This document shows positions 1-32,122 of a stretch of 62,033 bases of DNA, piece after piece. Origin of the DNA: a virus (Duplodnaviria > Caudoviricetes); IMG/VR virus record IMGVR_UViG_3300043777_000073, positions 1 through 62,033 of that record; one strand, written 5' to 3'. The first letter of the stretch is position 1; each line of letters opens with the position of its first letter. Position numbers and translations under genes: made by a program. Below the pieces are notes generated by a model, which saw nothing but the letters and a program-made list of their open reading frames with translations, did not search any database and was not told where the DNA came from.

Positions 1-126
1 GGCGCCGCTCGCGCCGTGGGCGCCGCTCGCGCCGTGGGCGCCGCTCGCGCCGTGGGCGCCGCTCGCGCCGTGGGCGCCGCTCGCGCCGTGGGCGCCGCTC
101 GCGCCGTGGGCGCCGCTCGCGCCGTG
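1..126. repeat. 18-bp tandem repeat GGCGCCGCTCGCGCCGTG x7, truncated by the window edge
   Basis: Seven perfect copies; they encode (HGASGA)n in the methyltransferase frame. Confidence 0.95.
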
Positions 127-2055
127 GAGTTGGCCCGGTGCATCTCGATCGCGGCCAGTCAGTTCACTCCCGTCCACAAGGTCGAAACCATCAAGCCCGA
201 AGTCTCGTTCCCCGCGCGACGGCTTCGCGCAGAAGAAGAAGCGTGCAGCGCCTCCGACATCGCTGCGCGCAGTACCTGGCGAGTCGATGCCACCGAACAT
301 GCCGCCGCCATAATCTGCCCGATGCTCGCCGCCGCCGCTCATACCAGGACGGTCGCCAGATTGTTCGTTTAGGAGCTTGACAGGACAGCTTTCCACGCAA
401 GAGTAGACTTCGCCGACTTCGCCGCGCTTCGTCTGCGCGAGGCTGCCGCGCGTAAAGCCAATCGACTTGACCGGCTGATCGGGTGTGGCGCCTAGAATGG
501 GCCGCACACCGACAACCTCTCCAGTCTTGCGGCATCCGTCCGCATGGCTCAGTGCGATGTGAGCCGGCCAGCGGCCATTCGCCTGCGATTCGAGATACTC
601 CGGCAGCGAGCCAGCCGCGCGCTCGGTATGCAGACCAAAGTCGCCGATGCCGGCCCCGTGACTTGGGTGGCCCAGTCTTTGCGCCACCGCCGCCGCCGCC
701 GCCGCCGCCTTATCCTCTTCGCTGACGTAACCGATCCGGCACGCATCGATGTTGAGCGCGCCAGTTCCATGGCGCAAGACGTTCGCCGCTAGCGTCGGCT
801 CAGAGAGCGGCGCGCGCGCTAGCCACCAGTCCTCGCAGGCCGGCTTGAGCGCAGAGCCCCAGCCGTCCCAGGCCGCCGAGGCCGCCGAGGCCGCCGAGGT
901 AATGGCGTGCCCCGGTTCGCGCATGTCAAGTCCGTAAACATCCGTTTGCACACCGTTCGGACGTCTCGCGGCATATTGGCCTTGCCCGAGCACCGGCCGC
1001 TCATTCGCTTCCGCCAGTGCTTGATATTCACTTGCGAGCGTACCGACCGTGAATGAGATTAGGCTTGCCGCCATGAACTCCGTAGTAGTGGCACTCGTGG
1101 CAGAGGCATTGTCCGTTTCGTGTGTCATGCCTGAGTTCTGGATGTGTTCGGATCGGCTTGATGTGATGAGCTTCCAGTCTTCGAGTAGAGCCGCATATAG
1201 CGCATCGCTTGCCGCCGCCATCGATGACGGCTCGCTTCCAAGCCAGATCTTCAGGGCTGCGGCGCCCCTGAGTCTGTCCGGCGTGACGCCGCTTGGCAAG
1301 TCCAGAGCATCGTTGGGAGCAGTAGAAGTGTCCGTGCGGTCTGCCGCTGTGATTGTCGATGAGCCAACTTTTATATTTTTGACTGATTCTTCCGCATCCG
1401 TCGCATCTGCGCTCCACCATGTGGAAGGCTCGCTTGCATCCGGTGGAGCAGAACATTGCTCCGCTTCGCACGTGTGATGGGCTTCGGTTACCAACGGTCC
1501 CGCACTGGACGCATCGCACGGCAACTTTTCTGGATTGATTCGCTGCGCTGCACGCTCGCGAGCAGAACGGGCCGCGTCTAGCTGGTCCGCCGCAACGCCG
1601 GCACGCGCCGCGTATTCGCCAAACGCGCGGCAGAGCGCCGGTTGATCTACCTCGCGAACCCGCTGCTGCAACCGCACCCACTTGTCCCGCTCCTGTTTAT
1701 CTATATGCTTTGATATGTTAGCGCTTTTCGGAAACCCGCTCGCAAAAAAATGCGCCACTCGATCACGCACATCCCATCCCGCATTCTCGATGGCCATTGC
1801 GGTCCAGTGCGACGTCCTAGGCAGCGCCCACACGAGCGCGTGCGCGCCAGGCTTTGCGACGCGTCGCAACTCCACGAACACTTCGGCTAGCCACGCGATC
1901 CACTGATCGCGTCCGCCTTTATCCTTGTCCCATTCGGCATTCATGAAGGCGATGCCGCTCGGCGGATCGGTCACGATGGCGTCCACGCTCGCGGTGTCCA
2001 TCGTTCGCAGGACTTCGAGCGCGTCGCCGTGGTGGAGAGTCCAGCGAGCGGTCAT
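1..2055 (-). CDS. DNA methyltransferase (N4/N6 beta-class, phage type), 3' end runs off the window
   Basis: Not in the ORF track because it has no stop in the window. I read the frame by hand from ATG 2055 to base 1 and found no stop. It reads MTARWTLHHGDALEVLRTMDTASVDAIVTDPPSGIAFM...LRRVAKPGAH...SGFPKS...WDGWGSALKPACE...GTGALNIDACRI...GRWPAH...GGAARFFFCAKPSRGERD, blocks typical of this family. Motif IV is DPPS. Confidence 0.9.
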   Translation of the reverse strand, partial: MTARWTLHHGDALEVLRTMDTASVDAIVTDPPSGIAFMNAEWDKDKGGRDQWIAWLAEVFVELRRVAKPGAHALVWALPRTSHWTAMAIENAGWDVRDRVAHFFASGFPKSANISKHIDKQERDKWVRLQQRVREVDQPALCRAFGEYAARAGVAADQLDAARSARERAAQRINPEKLPCDASSAGPLVTEAHHTCEAEQCSAPPDASEPSTWWSADATDAEESVKNIKVGSSTITAADRTDTSTAPNDALDLPSGVTPDRLRGAAALKIWLGSEPSSMAAASDALYAALLEDWKLITSSRSEHIQNSGMTHETDNASATSATTTEFMAASLISFTVGTLASEYQALAEANERPVLGQGQYAARRPNGVQTDVYGLDMREPGHAITSAASAASAAWDGWGSALKPACEDWWLARAPLSEPTLAANVLRHGTGALNIDACRIGYVSEEDKAAAAAAAVAQRLGHPSHGAGIGDFGLHTERAAGSLPEYLESQANGRWPAHIALSHADGCRKTGEVVGVRPILGATPDQPVKSIGFTRGSLAQTKRGEVGEVYSCVESCPVKLLNEQSGDRPGMSGGGEHRADYGGGMFGGIDSPGTARSDVGGAARFFFCAKPSRGERDFGLDGFDLVDGSELTGRDRDAPGQLHGASGAHGASGAHGASGAHGASGAHGASGAHGASGAHGASGA
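1028..1681 (-). CDS. HNH endonuclease with N-terminal CxxC...FCSxxC zinc-finger repeats, nested in an alternative frame inside the methyltransferase gene
   Basis: CAICGSTRRLEAHHIKP...NGQCLCHECH HNH core and three FCS/YCS repeats. AGGAG lies 8 nt upstream of the GTG. Confidence 0.88.
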   Translation of the reverse strand: MGAVAAAGSRGRSTGALPRVWRIRGACRRCGGPARRGPFCSRACSAANQSRKVAVRCVQCGTVGNRSPSHVRSGAMFCSTGCKRAFHMVERRCDGCGRISQKYKSWLIDNHSGRPHGHFYCSQRCSGLAKRRHAGQTQGRRSPEDLAWKRAVIDGGGKRCAICGSTRRLEAHHIKPIRTHPELRHDTRNGQCLCHECHYYGVHGGKPNLIHGRYARK

Positions 2056-6123: not shown

Positions 6124-6596
6124 TCGGTGTTATTCTTGAAGATGTACTCCGGGTCGTAGTCGTGATTGAGGCGATCGAAGTCGTAGAGCGACAAGCGATG
6201 CTTGTGGCCCTCGTGGTCGTCTTCGGCGATGGTGACGGTCTCGGCTCCGATGGCCACGATGGGGCCCGTGAAGATGAGGTTGTAGGTGTGGTAGACGGCG
6301 CGGTCGCCGAGTTTGAACGACTGCGCGAAGAGGCGCGAGCGCTTCGTGATCTTGCCGTCCGCGTAGTCGTGGCTCGTCTCGATGCCGTGGAGCAGGACGC
6401 TCTCGCCGGGAACAATAACGGCGTGGTGGCCTTCCGAGACGCGGCCCTCGTGCTTGTGGCCGAAGCGGACCCAGTCGCGGGACTTGATGACGTCGACCGT
6501 GATGGGTGCGGAAGCCTTGCGAGCGCGCTTGGCGCGTGCCGGCTGGGCGGTATCGTTGGCGGGCATCGTCTCGGCGGTGTTGGCTGCGCTGTTCAT
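6111..6596 (-). CDS. hypothetical protein, first gene of the leftward operon
   Basis: High GC3 coding pattern; ATG 6 nt after TATAGT. Confidence 0.7.
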   Translation of the reverse strand: MNSAANTAETMPANDTAQPARAKRARKASAPITVDVIKSRDWVRFGHKHEGRVSEGHHAVIVPGESVLLHGIETSHDYADGKITKRSRLFAQSFKLGDRAVYHTYNLIFTGPIVAIGAETVTIAEDDHEGHKHRLSLYDFDRLNHDYDPEYIFKNNTEWRD

Positions 6597-6636: not shown

Positions 6637-6734
6637 AAAGCACACCGCTCGGTCGATTTCTGGCCGCCGCTTTTCCCCTTGACATCCGGCCAGGCCAGGC
6701 GTCACCCTGACGACGCACGCTGGAGGGCGAGGCC

Positions 6735-6968
6735 ATGACCGACATCCCGCAGACCGAACCCGTCGACACCCTCGGCGACGCCCTCCCTCGTGAGATGTCG
6801 CGCGTGCGCGACCACGTGCTACCAGCGTACGTGGACATCGGCGAGGCCGGGCGGTTCGCGGCGACAATGATTCGCAACACGCTCGACGTCGCAACGAAGG
6901 CGCTGGCGGAGGGCGACGTCGTCATGATGCTGCGGGCTTACCAAGAGCTGAAAGGATTCGCCGAATGA
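6735..6968 (+). CDS. hypothetical phage protein
   Basis: GGAGG RBS; LGDALPREMSRVR...GDVVMMLRAYQELK. Confidence 0.75.
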   Translation: MTDIPQTEPVDTLGDALPREMSRVRDHVLPAYVDIGEAGRFAATMIRNTLDVATKALAEGDVVMMLRAYQELKGFAE

Positions 6969-11251: not shown

Positions 11252-11325
11252 TGTCCGACTAGGCGCTTCCGGGCTAGGCAGTGCACGTCAACGTTCGGTG
11301 ACGCAAGGCAAGGGCCCTTCGGGGC
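11252..11325 (+). ncRNA. orphan 5-nt-periodic unit (putative guide RNA) ending GGCAAG plus a TTCG hairpin
   Basis: tgtcc gacta ggcgc ttccg ggcta ggcag tgcac gtcaa cgttc ggtga cgcaa ggcaa, then gccc-ttcg-gggc; intergenic. Confidence 0.65.
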
Positions 11326-11338
11326 GTAGGAGCGAACG

Positions 11339-11644
11339 ATGAAAATTGTAAAGCTGAGCGACGAGACGTGCAGGCTGATTGAGGAGGCGAACGAGATAGA
11401 TCGTGCGGCTCGCGAATTGGACGCCGAGTTCAAGCGCCTGCCGGAGTACGCAGCGTTCCAAGCAGCCGCGGTGGATGGCGGTGTGCCTGCGTATTGTCCG
11501 GCTGCAGTCGCCCTGCAGATGCTGGAGATAACGTCCAGATGTCGTCGGGCGGATGGAGACCGCGACGCGGCCGTGAAACGCGCGTGGGCCGCTTTGAGAG
11601 CAGACATAGGCGTAGTCTGGAGCATGTATTATGAGCATTACTAG
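11339..11644 (+). CDS. hypothetical protein
   Basis: AGGAG RBS. Confidence 0.6.
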   Translation: MKIVKLSDETCRLIEEANEIDRAARELDAEFKRLPEYAAFQAAAVDGGVPAYCPAAVALQMLEITSRCRRADGDRDAAVKRAWAALRADIGVVWSMYYEHY

Positions 11645-12392
11645 ACGCAACGCAATCATCGGGGCCGCCGCGTGCGCGGTGGGGCCCGTTCCGGCGATGG
11701 CCGGCACTTCGCATCGCGACAAGTACGGCAAGCTTTGGGAAGAGGGACCGTATGCGTCGCCAGCGCGGCAGGAACTGGCAGAGATACTGCTCGCGGTGCC
11801 GGGGGTGGCGCGGGTGGCGACAACGAGTCCGAACCAAGAGACCAACGCGTGCGGCATACGGTGCACGACGGAGGCCGGTCGCGATTGGTATACCGGCTGC
11901 CTGCAATTCAAGGACGAAGCCCCACGCCCGCAAGAGGCTCTCTGGGAAGAGTTGCGCGACACGACGGCGATGGACGTCGTCATCCGTGGCGATAGCGCGG
12001 AGACGCTTCTCTGCGAAGCTACGGGTGAGCAGAACCGAGCGTTGATTGACGCCAGCAATCTGAATTGGGAGGCGAAGAAGTGGCCGATTGAGGCGCTGGA
12101 GGCGTCGATGCTGGAGCGTCTGCGAGCGACGCCTGGCGTCAGATACGCTCGGGCGCCACGGACGGAACATCTCGGGCGTCGTGCCGACTTCGTCCACGTT
12201 TGCATGTCGGATGGGTGGCACCTTGAATGGGACAAGGACACCAAGCCGTTTTGGCCCACGAGAGAAAGGCTGCTGCGTCGCGTGCTCACGACTGGGCCGT
12301 ACGAGATACAACGCTTCACGGAACGGCGGCGTGCGATAAAAGCGAGGTCTAGAACCCACCAGCGAAACGTGGTAACGAGAGAGAGCCTGTAG
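11631..12392 (+). CDS. hypothetical protein with a twin-arginine-like N-terminus
   Basis: MSITRRNAIIGAAACAVGPVPAMA. Confidence 0.55.
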   Translation: MSITRRNAIIGAAACAVGPVPAMAGTSHRDKYGKLWEEGPYASPARQELAEILLAVPGVARVATTSPNQETNACGIRCTTEAGRDWYTGCLQFKDEAPRPQEALWEELRDTTAMDVVIRGDSAETLLCEATGEQNRALIDASNLNWEAKKWPIEALEASMLERLRATPGVRYARAPRTEHLGRRADFVHVCMSDGWHLEWDKDTKPFWPTRERLLRRVLTTGPYEIQRFTERRRAIKARSRTHQRNVVTRESL

Positions 12393-12404
12393 GAGGGCAC
12401 AATC

Positions 12405-13223
12405 ATGGCATTCGGAAAAAAGAAGGTCGAGATCAACTACAATCAAGCCAATGTCGCGATGCTCGCGGCGGATGCACTCAAGAAGTCTAGAGCGGTGCGT
12501 GTCCGCCTGGCACTGCGGCTGACGTTCGATACGCCGCTTCTCATGCAGCGGTGGACGACGAAAGCGGTGCGGCAGATGCTCGGGAAGATGGTGGGCATGC
12601 CCGAGCCGAAGGTCTCGAAGGATCTAACGAAAGACTTCGAGGAGTCGTACTACCGGAACACGAACGGCGAGCCGGTTATCCCGTGCCGCGTCATCAAGGC
12701 GGCAATCGTCTCCGGGGCCATCGCAACGGGAGATGTCGTCACGAAGGCGGACCTCAAGCGAAGCTTGCGGGTCATCGGCTGGACGGCCCCAGTCGTGTTC
12801 AAAGGCGCGAAGACCATGAGCACCATGATCGTTCGCAACAGCGGCGGCCAGCCTGACGTTCGTGCACGCGCGGAGTTCCCTGTCGGTTCAACCGTCGACA
12901 TCCTTGTCGAGTTTGGCGTGCCGCTCACGCCGGACAAGGTGATGGCCGCCATCGAAGCCTCAGGCGTCGCTATCGGCATTGGCGAGTGGCGACCTGAGAA
13001 CGGCGGCGAGCTTGGGACGTTCCACGTCGACATCTTGAAGAACGACAAGGCGGCGCACGACCGAATCATCAAGGCGACGAGCGTGCCGGAGGACGAGTTC
13101 GTGATTCCGCCCGAGATGCTTCGGACGCTGGAGAGCATTCCAGTGGAGAAGCTAAGCGACTCCGCGCGCAAGGTTCGGTCGTTGGCGGATCACATCGGAA
13201 AGCAGAAAAGAACCGGGACTTGA
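12405..13223 (+). CDS. solitary Cas7/RAMP-like protein (Vipr-like), copy 1
   Basis: N-terminal strand plus TPLLM, IPCRVIKAAIVS helix, VRARAEF, and C-terminal Gly-rich loop GVAIGIGEWRPENGGELGTFHV. AGGAGG RBS. Confidence 0.8.
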   Translation: MAFGKKKVEINYNQANVAMLAADALKKSRAVRVRLALRLTFDTPLLMQRWTTKAVRQMLGKMVGMPEPKVSKDLTKDFEESYYRNTNGEPVIPCRVIKAAIVSGAIATGDVVTKADLKRSLRVIGWTAPVVFKGAKTMSTMIVRNSGGQPDVRARAEFPVGSTVDILVEFGVPLTPDKVMAAIEASGVAIGIGEWRPENGGELGTFHVDILKNDKAAHDRIIKATSVPEDEFVIPPEMLRTLESIPVEKLSDSARKVRSLADHIGKQKRTGT

Positions 13224-13224
13224 A

Positions 13225-13473
13225 ATGACTCGAGACAAGCAGATCAATTTCCGCGTTTCCGAGGACGAGGCGGCCCGATTCGATCGTGTCGCCGAGCACT
13301 ATGGGCTGGCGATGGCAGCGATGATTCGGATGCTCGTGAAGGAGAAGGGACGATACCATACGGGGACGTCGAGGCAGGCATGGTCTCCACCGGATTGGAG
13401 CGGCAAGGACGGGTTAGGCATGGCAGGCAAGGTTTCCACCGGATCGGAAAGTCCAGCACCGGCATCGGACTAA
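13225..13473 (+). CDS. ribbon-helix-helix (CopG-like) regulator whose C-terminus reads into the periodic array
   Basis: KQINFRVSEDEAARFDRVAEHYGLAMAAMIRMLV. Confidence 0.7.
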   Translation: MTRDKQINFRVSEDEAARFDRVAEHYGLAMAAMIRMLVKEKGRYHTGTSRQAWSPPDWSGKDGLGMAGKVSTGSESPAPASD

Positions 13474-13756
13474 ACTCCGAACGCATAGGAAGTCAACGGC
13501 TTGGCGAGGCAGGAGTGTCTAGGAGCGGCTTCGTGGGTTCACGAACGGATGGGACCGGCGTGGCAAGGCAGGCAAGGCAGCGATCGAATCGGCGTCGCAT
13601 GGATTGGATCGGCACGTAGGGGTCAGGTATGGCAGGAACGGATAGGATAGGCGCGGATAGGATACGGAATGGATTGGCAAGGCAGGCGTCGATTGAAGCG
13701 TAGAGGATAGGAGCGGCACGTATCGGTCATCACCTGATTGGACCGGCATGGCAGGC
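13373..13756 (+). ncRNA. 5-nt-periodic array (GGH-NN)n, six units delimited by GGCAGG (putative guide-RNA array 1)
   Basis: Units 13377-13425, 13426-13511, 13512-13570, 13571-13634, 13635-13684 and 13685-13753. Each is a run of pentamers closed by a 4-nt GGCA. Confidence 0.8.
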
Positions 13757-13780
13757 ACTGAAAACATGTAGGAGGACAAC

Positions 13781-14362
13781 ATGAAAAGAGCACCGACGAA
13801 AACGAAGTACAGGTTCAGGCTCATCCAAGACGAGTCACTCGCGCAGCTTGCGGGAGTCGAACTGACGAAGCTGGCAGAACAGCTGAAGGTCAACGACATC
13901 CGGCAGCTAGACGCCGCGACGGTCTGTGACATCGTTCTCAACGACAAGAAGCACCCGCTGAGAAAGCTCCCGATCTGGGGAGACTTCGATACCAAGACAG
14001 CGGCCCGCAAGCACTGGATCGAAACGACGCGTCGGCTCATTTCTGGGATTCAGATCGTGACGTACCATGTCGGCAAACGAGAGCACGTGAGCCCGATGTT
14101 TGTGAGCGCCGAGGCCCCAACGAAGAAAGAAGGGTCGAGGGCGACACGGCGATCGCACGTGATGACGGCCGACAGCTTGGCGCATGACCCGGTATTCATG
14201 TCGGCGGTCGGGACCAAACTGCGGACGATTTTTCATACGCTGCAGAGTTTGGAGCAGTACACGAGCGCGAGGCAGGTCCCCGAGAACCTGAGTGAACTTC
14301 TGGCTACTATCCGAGAGGCGGTGGACGCGTACAACGGAACGATGGCGAGCGAGGCAGCGTAG
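13781..14362 (+). CDS. conserved phage protein downstream of array 1 (putative accessory protein)
   Basis: AGGAGG RBS. AQLAGVEL...HPLRK..IWGDFDTKTAARKHWIETTRRLISGI resembles the PLH..FEWDD..AA..YR..QAR.LI phage family. Confidence 0.75.
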   Translation: MKRAPTKTKYRFRLIQDESLAQLAGVELTKLAEQLKVNDIRQLDAATVCDIVLNDKKHPLRKLPIWGDFDTKTAARKHWIETTRRLISGIQIVTYHVGKREHVSPMFVSAEAPTKKEGSRATRRSHVMTADSLAHDPVFMSAVGTKLRTIFHTLQSLEQYTSARQVPENLSELLATIREAVDAYNGTMASEAA

Positions 14363-14364
14363 GA

Positions 14365-14441
14365 GTCCAGACATCGCACGTCCCGATGCGGTTCGGTAAC
14401 GCTAGTATGGGCAACGCTAGACAAGGCAAGAGGCTTCGGTC
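14365..14441 (+). ncRNA. 5-nt-periodic unit ending GGCAAG plus a TTCG hairpin (putative guide)
   Basis: gtcca gacat cgcac gtccc gatgc ggttc ggtaa cgcta gtatg ggcaa cgcta gacaa ggcaa, then aggc-ttcg-gtct. Confidence 0.55.
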
Positions 14442-14449
14442 TGAGCACG

Positions 14450-15851: not shown

Positions 15852-16361
15852 TTGACCCCACCCGCCAAGCCTCGCCGCAAAGCCAGATACGCAAAAGACG
15901 ACGCCCGGGCGGTAGACGCCCTAGAGCGCCAGCGCAAGGTGCTTGAGCTTCGGATCAAGGGCTTCGGCCACCGGGAGATCGCCAAGGAGCTTGGCATCGC
16001 GGTGGGGACCTCCCACAAGGACACCGAGCTTGGCCTCAAGGCCCTGCAACCGCTCGAAGAGGCGGAGGTCTTGCTCGGCATCGAGCTTGCGCGCCTGGAC
16101 CGCTACCAGAAGGCGCTCGACGACGGCGCGGAGTCTGGGGACGCCCGGAGCGTGCTGGCCGCGCTGAAGATCATGGATCGGCGGGCCAAGTACCTCGGCC
16201 TGGATGCCCCGGCGCAGCTCGAGCACTCGGGCACCCTGAAGCACATCAACGTTGACCCTTCCAAGCTCAGCGACACCGAACTTCGAGACCTTGCGTCAGG
16301 AGCTTGGCCCCAGGCCCCCGGCGGCGATGGTGGCAGCGGCGGAGCTGGAGCGGCGGCGTAG
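15852..16361 (+). CDS. terminase small subunit (HTH)
   Basis: LELRIKGFGHREIAKELGI; LKIMDRRAKYLGLDAP; overlaps the large subunit. Confidence 0.8.
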   Translation: MTPPAKPRRKARYAKDDARAVDALERQRKVLELRIKGFGHREIAKELGIAVGTSHKDTELGLKALQPLEEAEVLLGIELARLDRYQKALDDGAESGDARSVLAALKIMDRRAKYLGLDAPAQLEHSGTLKHINVDPSKLSDTELRDLASGAWPQAPGGDGGSGGAGAAA

Positions 16362-17733
16362 GCTTCGCACGACGGGCCTGCTCGACTTCGTTCCGCTGCT
16401 CAGCCCGCAGTGGGATAGTCCGAAGCACCTTGAGCCGCTCACGTCGCGCTTCGAGCGCGCGCTGATCGAACCGATTCGCTTTCTCTTCAGCGTCCCGCCG
16501 CAGCACGGCAAGACGGAGACGGTCGCCCACGGCATCGTCTGGACGATGCTGCGCGACCCTACTCGGTCGCACATCTACGTCACCTACCAGACCAAGCGAA
16601 CGCGCGAGGTCAGCATCCGAACCCGCCAGCTCGCTGAGCGCGCAGGGCTCCGGCCGGAAGGCACGCAAGACCTCTGGCGCCTGCCGGAGGGCGGGCAGAT
16701 AAGCTTCACCTCCTTCGACGGGCAGCTGGGCGGTACGCCCGCGTCCGGTCTCATCATCGTCGACGACCCGCACAAGAACCGGCAAGAGGCCGAGTCGTCA
16801 ATCGTACGAGAGCACGTCTGGAGCGAGTTCAACTCGTCGGTCATGACTCGTATGCACAATACGACATCGGTCGTGGTCATCCACACGCGCTGGACGACCG
16901 ACGACCTCATAGCGCGGCTCGAGAAAATCGACGACCCGATTGAGCCAGAGCGCAAGCTCTGGCCCTACACGAACCTGCCGGCCATAAGCGAGGCGGGCGA
17001 GCTACTTTGGCCCGAGCACAAGTCGCGGCGTCTCATCGAAGAGGCCCGGGCGCGAAACGAATACGCGTGGTGGTCGCTCTTCATGGGGCAGCCGAGACCC
17101 CCAGGCGGCACGGTCTTTCACGACGTGCAGTTCTATGACGAACTGCCCAAGACCTACCGCGTCGCCTTTGGCCTGGACCTCGCGTACACGGCGAAGACAC
17201 GCAGCGACTACTCGTGCGCGGTCGTGCTCGCCGAGAGCGGCGGCAACTACTACGTACTAGACGTCAAGCGGGCGCAGTGCCCGACGCCGGAGTTCGCCCC
17301 CAAGCTTCGGGAGATCAAGGCGTCGTACCCGGGCGCGCAAGGTCTCTGGCACACGTCGACGACGGAGCCGGGAACCGCGGACTTGCTCCGCGAAGTCCTC
17401 GGATTCCACATCCGCAGCGAGCTTGCGCGCGGTGACCCCTTCCAGCGCGCTCAGCCCGTCGCGGCAGCCTGGAACACACGCGAGGGGCATCCGGGCCGCG
17501 TTTTCCTTCCCCGCGACAGGCCGTGGGTCGAGGCGTTCGTGTCCGAGCTTGTGAACTTCACCGGGGACCCGAAGCGCCACGATGACCAGGTGGTCGCGCT
17601 GGCGTCCGCGTATCAACTGCTCTCGATGGGGCATGCGGAAGTGCCCCGAGCCTTCCCGACCAAGTTCACGAAGCAGACGGGCGGCGGCCCCGTGTTCCCC
17701 GAAGGCGGCAAGGGCGGAGGATTCGTCTGGTGA
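16327..17733 (+). CDS. terL: terminase large subunit
   Basis: Walker A PPQHGKT, Walker B LIIVDDP, HTRW, nuclease GLDLA...SDYS and HDDQV. The ORF is open from 16252; ATG 16327 chosen. Confidence 0.95.
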   Translation: MVAAAELERRRRLRTTGLLDFVPLLSPQWDSPKHLEPLTSRFERALIEPIRFLFSVPPQHGKTETVAHGIVWTMLRDPTRSHIYVTYQTKRTREVSIRTRQLAERAGLRPEGTQDLWRLPEGGQISFTSFDGQLGGTPASGLIIVDDPHKNRQEAESSIVREHVWSEFNSSVMTRMHNTTSVVVIHTRWTTDDLIARLEKIDDPIEPERKLWPYTNLPAISEAGELLWPEHKSRRLIEEARARNEYAWWSLFMGQPRPPGGTVFHDVQFYDELPKTYRVAFGLDLAYTAKTRSDYSCAVVLAESGGNYYVLDVKRAQCPTPEFAPKLREIKASYPGAQGLWHTSTTEPGTADLLREVLGFHIRSELARGDPFQRAQPVAAAWNTREGHPGRVFLPRDRPWVEAFVSELVNFTGDPKRHDDQVVALASAYQLLSMGHAEVPRAFPTKFTKQTGGGPVFPEGGKGGGFVW

Positions 17734-17930
17734 ATGACGTTCAGCTCGTGTGCACATGCGGTCGGCACTTCTACCACTACGCCACCAAGGCGTACGTCGC
17801 GCGCCTGTCCTCGGGCCTTGTCGTGCTCAAGCCTCACTCGTGGCCGCCGTGCGTGCAGAAGCTCGACGCCGAGCGGCTCGAGCGCGCCGAGGAGATCACG
17901 CGAGACGATCTGCCCGCGGTGCTCAAGTGA
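17730..17930 (+). CDS. hypothetical protein
   Basis: GTGA-coupled to terL. Confidence 0.55.
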   Translation: MNDVQLVCTCGRHFYHYATKAYVARLSSGLVVLKPHSWPPCVQKLDAERLERAEEITRDDLPAVLK

Positions 17931-18436
17931 GCAACCTCGCGCCGTACTCGCCGCAGTTCCGTGTCCGAACGGATGCGTGGGGAAAAGATGAGACGAAGCC
18001 GGCGACCCCCGTGGTCGCGAGGCAGCCGGTCATAGATTGGATCAGGGCGAACGCGCCGGACCTTCGGCTTGGAAAACTCGCCAGCTGTGAGCATTGGAAC
18101 GAGACTGAGAAACGCAGCGAGCGCTTCGAGCATCGCCGCTGCATTGCGGCGTTCACATTCGACGGAGAGCGTTTCAACCTGGTCTCGTGCGCTGGCGTAG
18201 CCGAGGATCCAGACGATCACGTCATCCGACTTTGCGAGGATGCGCTGCGCAAGGCGATGAAGATCGAGGCCGCCCAGGGCCGGCCGCGTGAGCCCGGACT
18301 CGAGCAGCAGGTCATCGAAGCGGAACTCCAAGGCGACGCTTCCGAAGTGGCCAGACTGACGCAGCTTCTCATCGGCGGCCAACCCCGCGATCCAGATCGG
18401 TTTCGACCGATACCAATTCGACAGCGACAAGTGTGA
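17927..18436 (+). CDS. hypothetical protein
   Basis: GTGA-coupled ORF. Confidence 0.6.
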   Translation: MSNLAPYSPQFRVRTDAWGKDETKPATPVVARQPVIDWIRANAPDLRLGKLASCEHWNETEKRSERFEHRRCIAAFTFDGERFNLVSCAGVAEDPDDHVIRLCEDALRKAMKIEAAQGRPREPGLEQQVIEAELQGDASEVARLTQLLIGGQPRDPDRFRPIPIRQRQV

Positions 18437-18473
18437 AAACTAGAAGGCCCCAGCCCATCGCTGGGCCAGGGCC
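18436..18473 (-). terminator. hairpin with T-rich tail closing array 2
   Basis: Minus strand ggccctggcccagcgatgggctggggcc-ttctagtttt, at a convergent junction. Confidence 0.55.
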
Positions 18474-18476
18474 GTC

Positions 18477-18786
18477 TCCTTGCATCACGTCGCGCTACCA
18501 CGCTCAGCAGAGCACTGGCATAGGACGCAGGACCGTGCCACACGAGAACCAGCCACGCCGTGCGCGACCCCGCGCTGCCGGAGCTTGCGCCTGATTGATA
18601 GTTCCCGCCCGAGCCTTCCGACGCGAACGGGAATCCTTGGATTGCATTGCCTGGCCGGACCCGACGACGGCCCAGGGCGCAAGGCCGCACGCGGCGTCGA
18701 CCCGCCACGCAGTGCCGAACCTCGGATGGCATCTCATTGCCGAGCGCCGCGAAACGACACCTGGCGAAGCCCGGCACAGCGCTGCC
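18477..18786 (-). ncRNA. 5-nt-periodic array (NGY-NN)n downstream of RAMP-like gene 2 (putative guide-RNA array 2)
   Basis: 30 in-register pentamers 18786-18637 and 20 in-register pentamers 18579-18480; each run ends CAAGGA. Confidence 0.8.
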
Positions 18787-18791
18787 CTAAT

Positions 18792-19409
18792 TTATTCAGC
18801 CGCCGCCGAATGCTCGACGCGGTCCCACCGCTCGACGACGAACTTCCCGAAGACCCCCTTGCGGGCAGGGCGAAAGTCGCAGAGGCCGACTCGTTTCCCA
18901 GCGAGGTCCCATAGCTGCCGGATCGTATTCTCGCCGATCTCGGCATCGTCTAGTTCGATGCGTACGTGGAACGCCCAGCGGTCAAACCGAGGGCGCACGA
19001 TGCAGACCGCTTCGTTGCCGTTCGGGTTGACCCCCTTACGGACGTCGGGCTCCCAGGCGACCGCCTTTTTATCGTTGTCGGGGTCAACGAGCGGCAGCGC
19101 GAAATCCAGCATCGACATGAGTCCCGGCAGGATGGTCGACTTGCCAGTGCTGATCTGCCGCTTCGCGTCGAGGCGCACGAACACGCCTGCCGCAATGAGG
19201 CACGCCATCAGATTCTCACCGGGCAGCATCGGCTTCCCGTCGTGCAAATATAGCTTCGGCTCCGCATCTTCGCGCGGCGTGCGGACATGTCCAATGTCCT
19301 TCGCCTTTGGCTCCTTGACCTTCGTCCTAAGTTTTTCGAGGACGTTGTCACCGACTCGGTTCATGAGTAGTGGCGACGTTCCTCTGCACTTCACTCGAAT
19401 CAACAACAT
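18792..19409 (-). CDS. solitary Cas7/RAMP-like protein (Vipr-like), copy 2
   Basis: IRVKCRGTSPLLMN, LPGENLMACLIAAG, VRPRFDRW, AGKRVGLCDFRPARKGVFGKFVV. Confidence 0.82.
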   Translation of the reverse strand: MLLIRVKCRGTSPLLMNRVGDNVLEKLRTKVKEPKAKDIGHVRTPREDAEPKLYLHDGKPMLPGENLMACLIAAGVFVRLDAKRQISTGKSTILPGLMSMLDFALPLVDPDNDKKAVAWEPDVRKGVNPNGNEAVCIVRPRFDRWAFHVRIELDDAEIGENTIRQLWDLAGKRVGLCDFRPARKGVFGKFVVERWDRVEHSAAAE

Positions 19410-19423
19410 GACGAGCCCTTCTC

Positions 19424-19491
19424 CCCATATTTCGGGGTGCCGTGGATAACGATGCGCTGAACTACAATGCCAAGCCGTGCGAAGGCTGGCC
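19424..19491 (-). ncRNA. leader 5-nt-periodic unit upstream of RAMP-like gene 2
   Basis: ggcca gcctt cgcac ggctt ggcat tgtag ttcag cgcat cgtta tccac, then a cccc-gaaatat-gggg hairpin. Confidence 0.65.
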
Positions 19492-19667
19492 TACTCGTCT
19501 TTGACTTTTCCCTCCCCATGCCGCCTCCGATACTCCGCACGGACCATCCGTCGGAGCACGTCGGCCTTCTCAGTGCCGTCGATATCCGCCAGTAACGCCA
19601 GCATTCGCGTCTCATCCGTGGAAAGACAGAGCGTGAATCTGAAGGGGCGGCGGGCGATGCGAGGCAT
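19491..19667 (-). CDS. ribbon-helix-helix-like small regulator (58 aa, below the ORF-track cutoff)
   Basis: Hand translation: MPRIARRPFRFTLCLSTDETRMLALLADIDGTEKADVLRRMVRAEYRRRHGEGKVKDE. Confidence 0.65.
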   Translation of the reverse strand: MPRIARRPFRFTLCLSTDETRMLALLADIDGTEKADVLRRMVRAEYRRRHGEGKVKDE

Positions 19668-19885
19668 GCGGATTAGCTACGCCAACACATGCGGACAGTC
19701 AACGGAAAAGAGATGAAACAGCAAGACAAGCCGGCGCCATCGCGCAGGCCACGACATGGCACGCGTCGCGGACCGGCCCCCGAGGTCATCATCCGGCCGC
19801 GCCGGCACTACACGGGCGCGACGGGAGCGAGCATCGGGGACCTTCCCGAGCGCGCCGAGTTCGATCGCGGGAGCCGCGTCATCAA

Positions 19886-20083
19886 GTGACCCAGCCGACG
19901 CAGGCGCAGCTCGACTACGTCGAATGGGCGTCGCTCTGGCCGCTCGACAAGCCCGAGCCGCATCTCCCCTACGGCACCCGCTGGCGCTACTTCCGCAGCC
20001 TCTACAACGCGCCCACCCTGACGGGCCTCTTGCTCGGCGTCTTCCGTACGCCCTGGATGCAGGAGCGCCTCGCCGCCACATGA
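19886..20083 (+). CDS. hypothetical protein
   Basis: Coupled small ORF. Confidence 0.5.
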   Translation: MTQPTQAQLDYVEWASLWPLDKPEPHLPYGTRWRYFRSLYNAPTLTGLLLGVFRTPWMQERLAAT

Positions 20084-21360: not shown

Positions 21361-23289
21361 ATGGCAAACGTAGGTGCACCCAACGGAGGCGGCTGGACGA
21401 ATGGCCCTCAGCCTAACGGCGCGGCCGTTGGGCCGGCGCGCGGCGCGCAGGGTGCCGGAGGCAATCTCCTCATTGACCAGTTTGGCAACTGGCTGCCGCC
21501 GACCAATGACCCAGCGTTTCAGCCGCCAGGCAACCCGCTAAGGGACATCGAAGCCGCCAAGGGGCGCGCGAAGGTCATCCACCGGGAGATCCCCAACGTC
21601 GTCGTCGAGACGGGCTGGAGCCCGGGCTCGATCCGTTCGGCGCTCATGGATCTGGTCGTCGGCGTCTTCGACCGACCGAGCCAACTTCACGAGAGCATCA
21701 TGGCGGACTCGCGCGTGCAAAGCGCGATGAAGTCTCGGAGCGGCGGGCTTCTGGGCCGCGCCATTCGGTTCAAGGTCCCCAAGCGGTTCAAGGACGACCA
21801 GCGCGCGATCGACTGCCACGGCTCGTGGGAGCGGCACTGGCCCGCCATGCACGCGGAGCCCGCGCTCCTGCAGCTGCTCGAGACCGCGCACTCGCTCGGG
21901 TTCTCCTACTCGCAGATCCTATGGGACACGAGCAAGCGCGTCTGGAAGCCGTACCTCGTTCCGTTCAACGCGCGCTACTGCTACTACCACTGGACGCTGC
22001 GCACGCACGTCGCGGTCACGCTCGACGGGCAGATGCCCATCACCGGCGGCGACGCCCACTGGGTGCTGCACGCTCCCTACGGCAGCTACCGCGGCTGGAT
22101 GTTCGGGGCGCTTCGCGCCATCGCGCAGTGGTATCTCGCGCGAAACTACGCGCTCAGGGACTGGGCTCGGTACTGCGAGCGCCACGGCTTCCCCATCCCG
22201 CTGGCCGACACGCCGTTCGGAGCAGACCCGCAAGACATCCTCGCGTATCAGCTTCAGCTCGCAAACCTCGGACAAGAGTCCGTCATGCAGCTGCCGGGCT
22301 CGGTCGACGTCAACAAGTACGGCAAGTACGACCTCCGGTACCTCGAGCCCAAAGACGACAACTGGCAGGCGTTCAAGGCGCTCATCGAGCAGTGCAACGA
22401 CGAGATCACTCTCTCGCTGCTCGCCCAGAACCTCACGACTCAGGTCAAAGAGGGAAGCTTCGCGGCCGCCCGCGTGCACGCCGACGTGCGCCAGGCGCTG
22501 CTCGAAGCCGACGCTCGGGCGCTCGCCAAGACGCTTTACGTCCAGGTCGCACGCCCGTTTGCGGCGCTCAACTTCGGCGACGCCAACCTCGCTCCCGAGA
22601 TCACGTGGGACGTCCGGCCGCCGGAAGACCTCAAGACCAAGGCGGAGACGTTCGAATCGCTCTGCGTGGCCATCGCGCAGATGCGCATGGCCGGCATCAG
22701 GCTCACGGACGTCGAGCGCTTCGCACGTCGCTTTGGCATCATCGGCATGCAGGTCGAGGACATCAACCCACTGCAGGTCGAAGCCAAGCTCGCGCAAGCC
22801 ACGGGCAAGGTCGAAGCTGGCGGCGACGCCGAGCCAGTCGCAGACGACGAAAAGAAGAAAAGCAAGAAGTCCGACAAGCAGAACGAGGGCGAAGAAGGCA
22901 AGGGCGAAGAGGCTGTGGCATCTCGCTCGGAGCAGCGCCGCGTCGAACGCCGTCGCACAGCGCGCATGGTCACCAAGGCCACGCGCCGTGCGGCCCGCTC
23001 GGTGATTGCCCCCGCTCTCGAAGTCGTCGAGGCCCAGACGCGAGAGACCGCCGAGCGCCTCGCAGCCTTCGGTGCGCAGCTCGCAGAGCTTGCCGCGAAA
23101 GAGCCGCCTCCTCCCCCGCCGGCGCCAGAGCCACCACGTGAGCCGGAATTGACCTTTGCCCAGCGTAACGCCGCATTCCTCGCCGACCTCAAAGAGATGC
23201 GCGACCTCGGACTCAAGACCGACAGACTAGCCATCGAAGCCCTCGCCGAGCAGCATGGCGTGCCTGCGCCCGAATCTGAGGACGACTGA
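21361..23289 (+). CDS. portal protein (Mu gp29 / DUF935-like) with long C-terminal extension
   Basis: DWARYCERHGFP, LIEQCNDEITLSLLAQNLTT..GSFAAARVHADVR. Confidence 0.9.
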   Translation: MANVGAPNGGGWTNGPQPNGAAVGPARGAQGAGGNLLIDQFGNWLPPTNDPAFQPPGNPLRDIEAAKGRAKVIHREIPNVVVETGWSPGSIRSALMDLVVGVFDRPSQLHESIMADSRVQSAMKSRSGGLLGRAIRFKVPKRFKDDQRAIDCHGSWERHWPAMHAEPALLQLLETAHSLGFSYSQILWDTSKRVWKPYLVPFNARYCYYHWTLRTHVAVTLDGQMPITGGDAHWVLHAPYGSYRGWMFGALRAIAQWYLARNYALRDWARYCERHGFPIPLADTPFGADPQDILAYQLQLANLGQESVMQLPGSVDVNKYGKYDLRYLEPKDDNWQAFKALIEQCNDEITLSLLAQNLTTQVKEGSFAAARVHADVRQALLEADARALAKTLYVQVARPFAALNFGDANLAPEITWDVRPPEDLKTKAETFESLCVAIAQMRMAGIRLTDVERFARRFGIIGMQVEDINPLQVEAKLAQATGKVEAGGDAEPVADDEKKKSKKSDKQNEGEEGKGEEAVASRSEQRRVERRRTARMVTKATRRAARSVIAPALEVVEAQTRETAERLAAFGAQLAELAAKEPPPPPPAPEPPREPELTFAQRNAAFLADLKEMRDLGLKTDRLAIEALAEQHGVPAPESEDD

Positions 23290-30919: not shown

Positions 30920-32122
30920 ATGAAGACCCTTCTGTCACTCACCAAGGACCGCGACGACGCTCTCAAGGCCGTGGCTTCGGCTACGAGCGCGGGTGCGCGC
31001 AAGAAGTCGCTTGCCTCGCTCGAGGCCGCGTCGCTCGCTCTGGCCAAGTTCCAGGCTCAGCTCGCATCCAAGGCGGCAGCTCGCAAGCCGGTCGCCGCCG
31101 TCGACGCCGACGAGGAGGATAGCGACGACGAGGAAGAGGAGAGCGAAGAGGAAGAAGAGGAGTCGACCGACTCATCGGACGACGAGCCCAAGAAGCCGAT
31201 GGAGAAGAAGTCCAAGAAGGCGAAGGCCAAGTCGAAAGACAAGGACGACGACTCCGACGACGATGACGGGGACGACGACGACGACGAAGACGAAGAGGAA
31301 GAAGACGAGGAGGAAGAGGACGACGAAGAGGAGACCTCCGACTCCGAGGACGACGACGAGGAGGAAGAGGACGAGGAGGACGACGAAGAGGAAGAGGAAG
31401 AGCGCGCCGCAAGCGCGTCGGCCCTCGCGTCCGCTCGCTCGGTGCTTTCGGCGGCCAAGAAGGCAAACGACCGCCGCGCCATCACCTCGGCCCGCGCCCA
31501 CTTCAAGTCCGTCAAGTCGGCCGTCGCCGCCATGAGCAAGACCTCGGCGCGCTACCACAAGCTCAAGGCCGTCTGCGCCGCTGTCACCGGCAAGAAGGGC
31601 CTGCAGAGCATCCTCGGCGGCATCCAGGGTCTCGCGGTCAAGGCCGCGCAGGAAGAGGCCAACACGCGCGACATCGCCAAGATGAAGGCGGCCTCGAAGG
31701 CCAAGCGCGTGAACGACATGCTCGCGCAAGCGGTCGCCGACGGCAAGATCACACAGAAGACCGTGCCCATCCTGCGCGACGGCATGACCAACACCAAGAC
31801 GCTGCGCGCGTACCTCGGCGCTCTGCCGAAGCTCGTGCGAAGCACCAAGGATCCCGAGCTTGTCGGGCGCACGCTTCGTGGCAGCACGGACGCAACGGCC
31901 GACAAGGACCGCCAGGAAATCCTCGACTTCCAGGCGCTCAGCCCCGACCTGCAGAAGTACGTCACGCAGGAAGCCGCTGCGCAGGGCAAATCGATCGACG
32001 ACTTCATGAAGTCGATGCAGGCCGTGTCGGCGAAGGCTGGCGGCGGCGTGTCTCCCATCGCGGTCAAGCGGGCCGAAGCGGACTTCATTCCCCACCGTTC
32101 GAACGGTGCAGCAGGTCAGTAA
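30920..32122 (+). CDS. putative capsid scaffolding protein with a long Asp/Glu tract
   Basis: Lies between protease and capsid genes; LAQAVADGKIT motif. Confidence 0.65.
   Translation: MKTLLSLTKDRDDALKAVASATSAGARKKSLASLEAASLALAKFQAQLASKAAARKPVAAVDADEEDSDDEEEESEEEEEESTDSSDDEPKKPMEKKSKKAKAKSKDKDDDSDDDDGDDDDDEDEEEEDEEEEDDEEETSDSEDDDEEEEDEEDDEEEEEERAASASALASARSVLSAAKKANDRRAITSARAHFKSVKSAVAAMSKTSARYHKLKAVCAAVTGKKGLQSILGGIQGLAVKAAQEEANTRDIAKMKAASKAKRVNDMLAQAVADGKITQKTVPILRDGMTNTKTLRAYLGALPKLVRSTKDPELVGRTLRGSTDATADKDRQEILDFQALSPDLQKYVTQEAAAQGKSIDDFMKSMQAVSAKAGGGVSPIAVKRAEADFIPHRSNGAAGQ

What the first reader, a model, noticed from the sequence alone, without database searches (positions are those of the whole stretch)
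18436..19667. Second, divergent RAMP-like locus inserted antisense between terminase and portal, with a different repeat grammar
Seen: on the minus strand, an RHH-like gene (19667-19491), a 10-pentamer leader unit, a 205-aa RAMP-like gene, then 30 and 20 pentamers in unbroken register. Triplets are mostly GGC/CGC/TGC/GGT/CGT (NGY). Each run ends in CAAGGA followed by a hairpin-like segment. The two proteins share motifs (PLLM; G.G.G[ED][WF]RP..G..G.F.V) but little else, and the unit ends differ (CAAG+hairpin here, GGCAGG in locus 1). Inference: two orthogonal subtypes in one phage, this one acquired as a moron-like insert. The independent recurrence of RHH + RAMP + 5-periodic tract argues against coincidence.
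Basis: partly seen in the sequence, partly recalled or inferred. Interest (0 to 1): 0.9.

Follow-up and report, generated by a model that had tools for sequence, protein, structure and literature searches.

The report
Second VIPR guide-RNA cassette in phage
This stretch of an uncultured soil phage is a compact VIPR system: a Cas7-like protein gene flanked by guide RNAs built from five-base units, a kind of RNA-guided gene silencer first described in 2026, so it is a new example, not a new principle.

Summary
On the minus strand lie a 58-aa ORF (19667-19491), an 11-unit pentamer tract, a 205-aa gene (19409-18792), and two tracts of 29 and 22 pentamers of form N-G-Y-N-N. Both tracts end in CAAGGA plus a hairpin. 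They exceed every one of 100 simulated windows.

The protein is a RAMP. Its model has pLDDT 95, and its best fold matches are Csm3/Cas7. A family profile matches only the solved SUSP1 Vipr protein, at full length, E 2.4e-15.

Three 2026 preprints describe this kind as VIPR: a Vipr protein plus vrRNAs of GGY/NN repeats that bind DNA by a one-base-skip code. They list YNNNG and NNNGG as variant grammars. Those are the grammars of locus 2 and locus 1 here.

- 77 of 91 related loci carry such tracts beside the gene, on its strand.
- A complete sibling phage has the same TerL-to-portal gene order but lacks both loci. Locus 2 is therefore a 1.25-kb insert.
- The RHH call for the small ORF is weak.
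- No target was found, and orthogonality of the two systems is untested.

Verdict: a new member of a known kind.

The parts
18437..19688 (.). Whole locus-2 cassette, an insertion relative to sibling phage G001/L016
   Evidence: It lies between the stop of the conserved + strand gene 17750-18436 (42 % to L016 9493-10068) and the ATG of the conserved 66-aa + strand gene 19689-19889. In L016 these two genes are 17 bp apart.
18446..18473 (-). Hairpin plus T-run closing vrRNA-B; tail and likely terminator of the cassette
   Evidence: 12-pair stem with 9 GC pairs, followed by TTCTAGTTTT. Fold energy -28.8 kcal/mol, z -3.75.
18480..18589 (-). vrRNA-B repeat tract: 22 pentamers N-G-Y-N-N, ending in TGCAAGGAGA
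   Evidence: 18 of 22 units are NGY.
18600..18641 (-). vrRNA-A tail: TCCAAGGA plus hairpin
   Evidence: Fold energy -20.9 kcal/mol, z -2.45. The same TCCAAGG-plus-hairpin tail is seen in the closest relatives.
18642..18786 (-). vrRNA-A repeat tract: 29 pentamers in one register
   Evidence: 24 of 29 units are NGY. The run exceeds all 100 simulations.
18792..19409 (-). vipr gene (Vipr2, 205 aa), a RAMP/Cas7-like RNA-binding protein
   Evidence: phrog_4652, E 1.8e-20. AF2 pLDDT 95.2. Foldseek matches Csm3/Cas7. Profile against SUSP1 Vipr 36pp_D, E 2.4e-15. R139, D178, F179 and R180 align to SUSP1 R138, D177, W178 and R179.
19437..19491 (-). Upstream (leader) vrRNA tract: 11 pentamers, then a small hairpin and the ribosome-binding region (19410-19436)
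   Evidence: 8 of 11 units are NGY. Period-5 power is 5.5 sd above the mean. Upstream tracts are present in 47 of 81 related loci with flank.
19491..19667 (-). 58-aa ORF, possibly an RHH DNA-binding accessory protein; status uncertain
   Evidence: Coding-like GC1/2/3 of 0.64/0.46/0.71. ESM Atlas look-alikes at 0.92-0.93 include RHH_1, RHH_3 and NikA-like clusters. Against: no Pfam hit, no homologue, and the source's gene call is only 37 aa.
11262..11331 (+). Solo vrRNA-like unit X: NGY grammar, with a CAAGGCAAGG plus GCCC-TTCG-GGGC tail
   Evidence: 8 of 10 units are NGY. Period-5 power is 5.9 sd above the mean. The positional homologue in G001 keeps the GY columns and differs at the NN columns.
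14375..14445 (+). Solo vrRNA-like unit Y: NGY grammar, with a CAAGGCAAGAGGCTTCGGTCT tail
   Evidence: 7 of 11 units are NGY. The homologue in G001 at 6806-6898 has the same tail. This is weaker than X.
12405..13223 (+). Locus 1 vipr gene (Vipr1, 272 aa)
   Evidence: phrog_4652, E 2e-13. Family profile, E 1e-28. 22 % identical to Vipr2.
13373..13755 (+). Locus 1 staggered vrRNA array: GG-N-N-N units, six guides between seven GGCAGG junctions
   Evidence: Period-5 power reaches up to 11.6 sd above the mean. The same junctions occur in 3 of 3 close relatives.

Best explanation
Locus 2 is a VIPR (Viral Interference Programmable Repeat) cassette. The 205-aa gene encodes a Vipr protein, a minimal Cas7-like RAMP. 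The three flanking tracts encode vrRNAs of 11, 29 and 22 units.

By analogy with the SUSP1 and Pseudomonas fulva systems, the expected mechanism is as follows.
1. One protomer binds each 5-nt unit.
2. The protomer holds the G-Y scaffold by the thumb arginine (R139) and the G-loop (D178-F179-R180).
3. The protomers form a helical filament that presents the two variable bases of every unit.
4. These dinucleotides pair with double-stranded DNA in an NN-skip-NN register.
5. The bound complex blocks transcription of a competing mobile element.

Here the scaffold is the relaxed variant N-G-Y (YNNNG in the preprint's notation). The guides are long, and each ends in a (TC)CAAGG-plus-hairpin tail.

The cassette entered this phage as a self-contained 1.25-kb insert, antisense to the morphogenesis genes. 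The same phage carries a second VIPR of another clade (locus 1).

Shown here: the fold, family membership, the tracts and their statistics, their conservation beside the gene in relatives, and the insertion. Inferred from the preprints: transcription, assembly of the RNA-protein complex, the skip code, silencing, and the role in conflict between phages.
For: Protein:
- phrog_4652.
- 163 close homologues and 1,623 representative homologues at E up to 0.001.
- AF2 pLDDT 95.2, pTM 0.89.
- 95 PDB chains at E up to 0.001, led by Csm3 and type VII Cas7.
- The family profile hits only 36pp_D, the SUSP1 Vipr: E 2.4e-15, covering 1-192 of 202 profile positions against residues 1-191 of the 202-residue chain.
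- The residues that contact G2 and Y3 in SUSP1 are conserved (residue roles from the Results section of 10.64898/2026.04.26.720927, part 1 of 2).

RNA tracts:
- 14 of 14 related loci in the first set carry tracts.
- 77 of 91 related loci carry a run of at least 10 units on the gene strand next to the gene.
- Only 11 (+ strand) and 3 (- strand) runs lie elsewhere in these loci.
- Units near the gene number 4,510 on the gene strand against 965 on the other strand.
- AAGG lies at the run end in 84 of 234 runs, against 9 of 234 control windows.
- CAAGG-N3-7-TTCG occurs 51 times on the gene strand against 11 on the other.

Literature: definition of the kind, and the variant grammars NNNGG, YNNNG and NNNNG, from the Results and methods sections 18, 20 and 27 of 10.64898/2026.04.26.720920.

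Insertion.
Against: - No RNA data: no RNA sequencing run holds this stretch.
- No target was found for any guide. This covers the window itself, the sibling phage, the 91 related loci, and five exact seeds in public collections. The preprint likewise reports no self-targets, and my public searches needed exact 9-10-unit seeds, so they were insensitive.
- SUSP1 H17, which contacts G1, is N17 here.
- Position 1 of the unit is not conserved.
- 5 of 29 and 4 of 22 units break the scaffold.
- No sigma-70-like promoter was found. The host is unknown.
- The accessory gene is doubtful.
Confidence: 0.88

Rival explanations
1. The cassette is VIPR-derived but decayed or repurposed. The protein is kept, but the tracts are eroded guides that no longer direct silencing. 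Alternatively, the complex targets RNA and not DNA.
For: - Scaffold breaks in 9 of 51 units of tracts A and B.
- Position 1 is loose.
- No target was found.
- No conserved accessory gene.
- The structure preprint reports that SUSP1 VIPR can pair with single-stranded RNA, though it then assembles incompletely.
Against: - Loose position 1 and long guides are the norm in this clade: 43 of 47 loci on the tree.
- The preprint states that internal degeneracy of vrRNAs is frequent.
- The protein is intact, with its key residues.
- The tails and the terminator are intact.
Confidence: 0.07
2. The period-5 tracts act as DNA and not RNA. They would be arrays of half-turn-spaced binding sites for the small RHH-like protein or another DNA binder, with the RAMP-like gene only a neighbour.
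For: - A small RHH-like ORF sits next to each locus.
- No RNA evidence is available.
Against: - The RHH ORF of locus 2 is absent from all 91 related loci, which still have the tracts.
- The tracts follow the strand of the vipr gene.
- The conserved 3' CAAGG-plus-hairpin ends are strand-specific.
- In the characterised systems, such tracts are transcribed and co-purify with Vipr (preprint Results).
Confidence: 0.03
3. The tracts are chance features of G+C-rich DNA or translated low-complexity coding sequence.
For: - Spurious ORFs of 65-186 aa overlap the tracts.
- NGY runs of 7-8 hits do occur by chance, about 13 per simulated window.
Against: - The observed runs of 25 and 18 hits exceed the maximum of 15 seen in 100 simulations.
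- The period is 5 and not 3.
- The same feature recurs beside the homologous gene in 77 of 91 loci.
Confidence: 0.01

Closest known systems
Type II VIPR of Escherichia phage SUSP1 and the Pseudomonas fulva prophage (bioRxiv 10.64898/2026.04.26.720920, .720927 and 10.64898/2026.10.15.759431)
   Same: - The Vipr protein is homologous over its full length.
- The thumb arginine and the G-loop D-aromatic-R are conserved.
- Layout is the same: one vrRNA upstream and an array downstream on the gene strand.
- Units are 5 nt, with a fixed scaffold and two variable bases.
- A structured 3' tail follows each tract.
- The setting is a phage, with no cas genes among the neighbours scanned and no CRISPR-like array found by TRF.
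   Different: - The scaffold is N-G-Y and not G-G-Y.
- H17 is N17 here.
- Guides have 11, 29 and 22 units, against the 9-16 reported for type II.
- The tail is (TC)CAAGG plus a simple hairpin, not the SUSP1 pseudoknot tail seen in L025.
- There is no vap1-like gene. The small ORF is an orphan.
- I could not assign one of the seven published types, because figures and supplements were not visible.
CRISPR class 1 backbone proteins: Cas7/Csm3 of type III-A and Cas7 of type VII
   Same: - The RAMP fold. The best Foldseek matches are 9ash_F, 9g9f_D, 6xn3_F and 8z4j_J, with E from 5e-7 to 4e-6 and TM 0.50-0.55.
- A glycine-rich loop.
- One protomer per short stretch of guide RNA.
   Different: - No CRISPR repeat-spacer array, and no Cas5, Cas6 or large subunit nearby.
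- The unit is 5 nt with 2 pairing bases, not 6 nt with 5 pairing bases.
- Sequence identity to these chains is only 10-17 %.
VIPR-null phages with solo vrRNAs ('guns for hire', 10.64898/2026.10.15.759431, section 8)
   Same: Sibling phage G001 is complete, with direct terminal repeats, and has no vipr gene. It still keeps two vrRNA-like units, homologous to units X and Y of this window.
   Different: - The phage lineage and environment differ: soil, with a portal nearest to Myxococcus phage Mx4 at 36 %.
- The scaffold is NGY.
- The units flank the site of locus 1, yet by grammar and tail they resemble locus-2 guides.
- The evidence for X and Y is modest: 8 of 10 and 7 of 11 units.

Membership tests
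VIPR system | The protein is homologous to characterised Vipr proteins | tested here: met
   The profile of 71 family members hits only SUSP1 Vipr (36pp_D) among 177,635 PDB sequences: E 2.4e-15, full length. The single sequence scored only E 0.16.
VIPR system | Minimal RAMP fold: an RRM core and a glycine-rich loop | tested here: met
   AF2 model with pLDDT 95.2. 95 PDB chains at E up to 0.001, led by Csm3/Cas7. G-loop sequence GLCDFRPARKG. I did not inspect the thumb in the model; it is inferred from the alignment of R139 to the SUSP1 thumb residue R138.
VIPR system | Residues that hold the scaffold bases in SUSP1 (H17, R138, D177, W178, R179) | tested here: inconclusive
   R139, D178, F179 and R180 are conserved, but H17 is N17. 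N17 occurs in loci with and without a conserved G1, so it does not explain the relaxed grammar.
VIPR system | Tandem 5-nt units of GGY or a related consensus alternating with variable NN, beside vipr on its strand | tested here: met
   NGY/NN units, 11 + 29 + 22 in number. This corresponds to the preprint's YNNNG variant. The same holds in 77 of 91 related loci.
VIPR system | A conserved, structured 3' tail after the repeat tract | tested here: met
   CAAGGA plus a hairpin after tracts A and B. (TC)CAAGG-plus-hairpin tails occur in relatives. The leader tract has only a weak hairpin.
VIPR system | vrRNAs are transcribed and bound by Vipr | not testable with these tools
   No RNA run is listed for this stretch.
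VIPR system | Guides match natural DNA targets under the one-base-skip rule at 80 % or more of NN positions | tested here: inconclusive
   No match above shuffled-guide nulls in the window, G001 or the 91 loci. Five exact seeds gave 0, 1, 0, 0 and 4 hits, and none of these extended. The searches were insensitive.
VIPR system | An associated vap accessory gene | tested here: inconclusive
   The 58-aa ORF is an orphan with only an RHH lead. In the five nearest long loci inspected, the upstream tract follows the preceding large gene with no small ORF between.
CRISPR-Cas class 1 effector | A CRISPR repeat-spacer array and further cas genes (Cas5, Cas6, large subunit) | tested here: not met
   TRF finds no such array in the window. 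The neighbouring ORFs scanned have no cas family hits.

The most novel reading that the evidence does not exclude
This phage may run two non-interchangeable VIPR systems. One reads GG-N scaffolds in a staggered, GGCAGG-punctuated array. The other reads N-G-Y scaffolds with CAAGG-hairpin tails. The second system may also load two remote solo guides, X and Y, which flank the first locus. A complete sibling phage that has no vipr gene keeps the X and Y homologues. This suggests that solo guides which borrow a relative's Vipr protein are a general strategy well beyond enterobacterial phages. Two VIPR types in one element may also be a recurrent arrangement: the closest relative, L026, carries two vipr genes in tandem.
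Probability: 0.3. Interest if true: 0.55.

Novelty: new member of a known kind. Interest (0 to 1): 0.4.

Why it matters
VIPR was described only in 2026, and its experiments cover two closely related type II systems. This window offers a natural test bed for three questions the preprints leave open.

1. Can two Vipr proteins with different scaffolds (GG-N and N-G-Y) and different tails keep their guide pools apart within one cell?
2. How is a relaxed scaffold recognised when the G1-contacting histidine is absent?
3. Do very long guides of 29 units, giving a footprint of about 86 bp, behave like the 12-unit SUSP1 guides?

The comparison with the sibling phage shows that VIPR cassettes move as small, self-contained inserts into intergenic gaps of the morphogenesis region. 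It also extends the 'solo vrRNA in a vipr-null phage' pattern to an unrelated soil phage lineage. None of this changes the principle.

Tried and rejected
- **Family and RNA libraries.** Pfam and NCBIfam gave nothing for Vipr2, Vipr1 or the 58-aa ORF. RHH1 had only sub-threshold NikA-like, RelB and DUF6290 hits. Rfam had no match in the window. TRF does not see the tracts.
- **Single-sequence structure.** The AF2 model was useless, at pLDDT 35.
- **Related-locus searches with single proteins.** None were found. Alignment A1 was too diverse for the tool. Closer alignments A2 and A4 worked.
- **Idea that H17-to-N17 explains the loss of G1.** Rejected. N17 occurs in loci with G1 at 73-75 % (L006, L010) and at 29-45 % (L004, L005, the window).
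- **Clustering of the GGY-rich label on the tree.** Not significant: 3 changes, and 41-42 of 500 shuffles were as low. The tree has 47 rows drawn from 92 (91 loci plus the window). I dropped partial or duplicate proteins and loci with fewer than 20 units.
- **Targets.**
  - Window guides against the window, G001 and the 91 loci gave nothing above shuffled nulls. One search stopped on a script error before scoring the locus-1 guides against the window and G001. They were scored only against the 91 loci.
  - 179 relatives' guides against the window and G001 gave only short guides at 0.8, as chance gives. No nulls were run for this set after a timeout.
  - Exact seeds gave 0 and 1 hit in viral contigs. 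The one hit did not extend, at 20 of 40.
  - Exact seeds gave 0, 0 and 4 hits in genome contigs. The four hits scored 27-33 of 58.
- **Expression.** No RNA holder is listed. One DNA run holds the stretch and may be the source sample.
- **Promoter scan.** 0 sites.
- **RHH1 against the 58-aa ORF.** BLASTP E 0.17.
- **Supplements.** Supplementary files and figures of the preprints were not visible. The published type (I-VII) of either locus, and whether RHH-type vap genes are already listed, remain open.
Full report
**What is there**

The window is a whole virus record of 62,033 bases. It is estimated 69 % complete and comes from a soil metagenome. G+C is about 64 %. TerS lies at 15852-16361, TerL at 16252-17733 and a Mu-type portal at 21361-23289.

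On the minus strand between them lie, in order:
- a 58-aa ORF at 19667-19491;
- a tract of 11 pentamers at 19491-19437, followed by a small hairpin;
- a 205-aa ORF at 19409-18792;
- tract A, 29 pentamers in one register at 18786-18642, ending in TCCAAGGA plus a hairpin;
- tract B, 22 pentamers at 18589-18480, ending in TGCAAGGAGA plus a 12-pair hairpin and a T-run.

The unit is N-G-Y-N-N: position 1 is G45/C30/T21/A2 %, position 2 is G 88 %, position 3 is pyrimidine 95 %, and positions 4-5 are near even.

**More than chance**

The two long runs score 25 of 32 and 18 of 22 NGY hits. All 13 other runs in the window score 7-8. In 100 second-order Markov simulations of the window, the best run had at most 15 hits.

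Period-5 Fourier power peaks at locus 1 (up to 11.6 sd above the mean), at 11236, at 19436 and at 18706. Period-3 power in the tracts is low. The tracts therefore cannot be coding low-complexity sequence.

**The protein**

Pfam and NCBIfam are blank. The 205-aa protein and the 272-aa protein of locus 1 both match phrog_4652, a family of unknown function, at E 1.8e-20 and 2e-13. The two share 22 % identity.

The family is large: 1,623 representatives at E up to 0.001.

With an alignment of 71 members, AlphaFold gives pLDDT 95.2. Foldseek finds 95 PDB chains at E up to 0.001. The best are Csm3 of type III-A and Cas7 of type VII, with TM about 0.5. That library ends before the Vipr structures were released.

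A profile of the same alignment, searched against all PDB sequences, hits one sequence only: 'SUSP1 Vipr protein' (36pp_D), at full length, E 2.4e-15.

**What is known**

A literature search found three 2026 preprints. I read:
- the Results and methods sections 18, 20 and 27 of 10.64898/2026.04.26.720920;
- part 1 of 2 of the Results of 10.64898/2026.04.26.720927;
- the abstract and sections 8 and 17 of 10.64898/2026.10.15.759431.

They define VIPR as follows. A phage-borne minimal RAMP, Vipr, polymerises on vrRNAs made of GGY/NN pentamers with a conserved 3' tail. The NN bases pair with double-stranded DNA, skipping every third target base. The complex silences transcription of competing elements.

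The first preprint lists seven types, variant grammars (NNNGG, YNNNG, NNNNG) and staggered arrays whose guides overlap by one base. Locus 2 is the YNNNG variant. Locus 1 is an NNNGG array whose guides join at GGCAGG, which matches the description of staggered arrays.

I fetched SUSP1 (KT454805) and aligned its Vipr. SUSP1 R138, D177, W178 and R179 correspond to R139, D178, F179 and R180 in Vipr2, and to R155, E194, W195 and R196 in Vipr1. H17 is N17 in Vipr2 and Q48 in Vipr1.

**Relatives**

In the first 14 loci fetched, all 14 have NGY tracts beside the gene on its strand.

Across 91 loci:
- 77 have a run of at least 10 units next to the gene on the gene strand;
- 63 of the 82 loci with downstream flank have a downstream run;
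- 47 of the 81 loci with upstream flank have an upstream run;
- only 11 (+ strand) and 3 (- strand) runs lie elsewhere in these loci.

Run ends carry AAGG in 84 of 234 cases, against 9 of 234 control windows. In the closest relatives the tail reads TCCAAGG plus a GC hairpin, often with a TTCG loop.

On a tree of 47 rows, the window pairs with L026 (support 100/98). 43 of the 47 rows have loose position 1. The four GGY-rich loci are not significantly clustered.

For Vipr1, all 3 close relatives have arrays punctuated by 18, 8 and 7 GGCAGG junctions. 59 of 63 wider relatives have GG-runs near the gene. A homologue of the 193-aa gene downstream of locus 1 recurs in two of the three.

Each protein clade thus has its own array design.

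**The insert**

A complete sibling phage, G001, has 90.9 kb with direct terminal repeats. Its TerL is 82 % and its portal 86 % identical to those of the window. It has the same gene order from TerS to the portal.

Where the window has 1,252 bp (18437-19688), the sibling has 17 bp between the two flanking conserved genes. The block 11335-14367, which holds locus 1, is also missing there. Neither phrog_4652 nor my family profile finds any vipr gene in G001.

**Solo guides**

G001 and the window share two vrRNA-like units with NGY grammar and CAAGG-hairpin tails. In the window they lie at 11262-11331 and 14375-14445, flanking locus 1. Between the two phages the G-Y columns are kept while the NN columns differ.

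By grammar and tail these units look like guides for a Vipr2-type protein. This is inference, and the statistics are modest.

**The small ORF**

Evidence for a real RHH gene:
- a coding-like GC pattern;
- language-model look-alikes at 0.92-0.93 that include RHH clusters, which is a lead only.

Evidence against:
- no Pfam hit;
- no homologue in the large protein collection except itself;
- no homologue in the 91 loci;
- no similar small ORF in the five nearest long loci inspected.

**Targets and expression**

No guide matches the window, G001 or the related loci above shuffled nulls. Five exact seeds in public collections gave only chance hits. No RNA run is available.

**Verdict**

The thing is a VIPR system, a kind already described, so this is a new member of that kind. 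What goes beyond the published text that I could read:
- two clades in one phage;
- the clean insertion site;
- the long NGY guides with CAAGG tails;
- the solo units shared with a vipr-less sibling.

Noticed in passing
window 11262-11331 (+) and 14375-14445 (+); G001 6706-6898 (= L016 about 6196-6388): Two solo vrRNA-like units flank locus 1. They have locus-2-type grammar and CAAGG-hairpin tails. They are conserved in position in a complete sibling phage that has no vipr gene.
   Followed up: partly
L026 1083-1700, 1945-2619 and 3110-3330: The closest relative of Vipr2 (74 %) carries a second, divergent vipr gene in tandem (phrog_4652, E 1e-14; 24 % identical to both window proteins). Downstream lies an array with GGCAAGGCAGG junctions. 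The setting is between an exonuclease-like gene and a Sak4-like gene.
   Followed up: partly
window 13781-14362 (+): The 193-aa gene after the locus-1 array has homologues downstream of vipr in L107 (40 %) and L108 (32 %). It is a candidate accessory gene of that VIPR clade. It has no Pfam or PHROG hit.
   Followed up: partly
window 13225-13473 (+): The RHH-like ORF of locus 1 has only sub-threshold NikA-like and RelB hits. It reads on into the first vrRNA units, and its last 38 codons have a non-coding GC pattern. The true protein is probably about 45 aa, or it overlaps the array.
   Followed up: partly
window 1-127: A perfect 18-bp tandem repeat, 7.1 copies (GGCGCCGCTCGCGCCGTG), sits at the very start of the record.
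   Followed up: no
window 31244-31402: A long acidic GAC/GAG-rich repeat of period 3/15, probably a poly-Asp/Glu stretch in a protein.
   Followed up: no
G001 90700-90916 and 1-40: A 15-nt periodic stretch reading as a pentapeptide-repeat-like protein runs across the terminal repeat. It gave the strongest period-5 signal in that genome but is not a vrRNA.
   Followed up: yes
phage records H13-H25: Cultured phages encode distant homologues of Vipr2 (24-28 % identity, E from 8e-9 to 0.1), all annotated as hypothetical. They include Pseudomonas LESphi2 and Medea1; Gordonia Trine, UmaThurman, Pipp and MakoManhole; Mycobacterium LittleE; and Vibrio 1.266.O.
   Followed up: no
window 17750-18436 (+) versus 17834-18430 (-): Two long overlapping ORFs lie on opposite strands. 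The + strand one is the gene: it is 42 % identical over 224 aa to the sibling phage, against 32 % for the antisense frame.
   Followed up: yes
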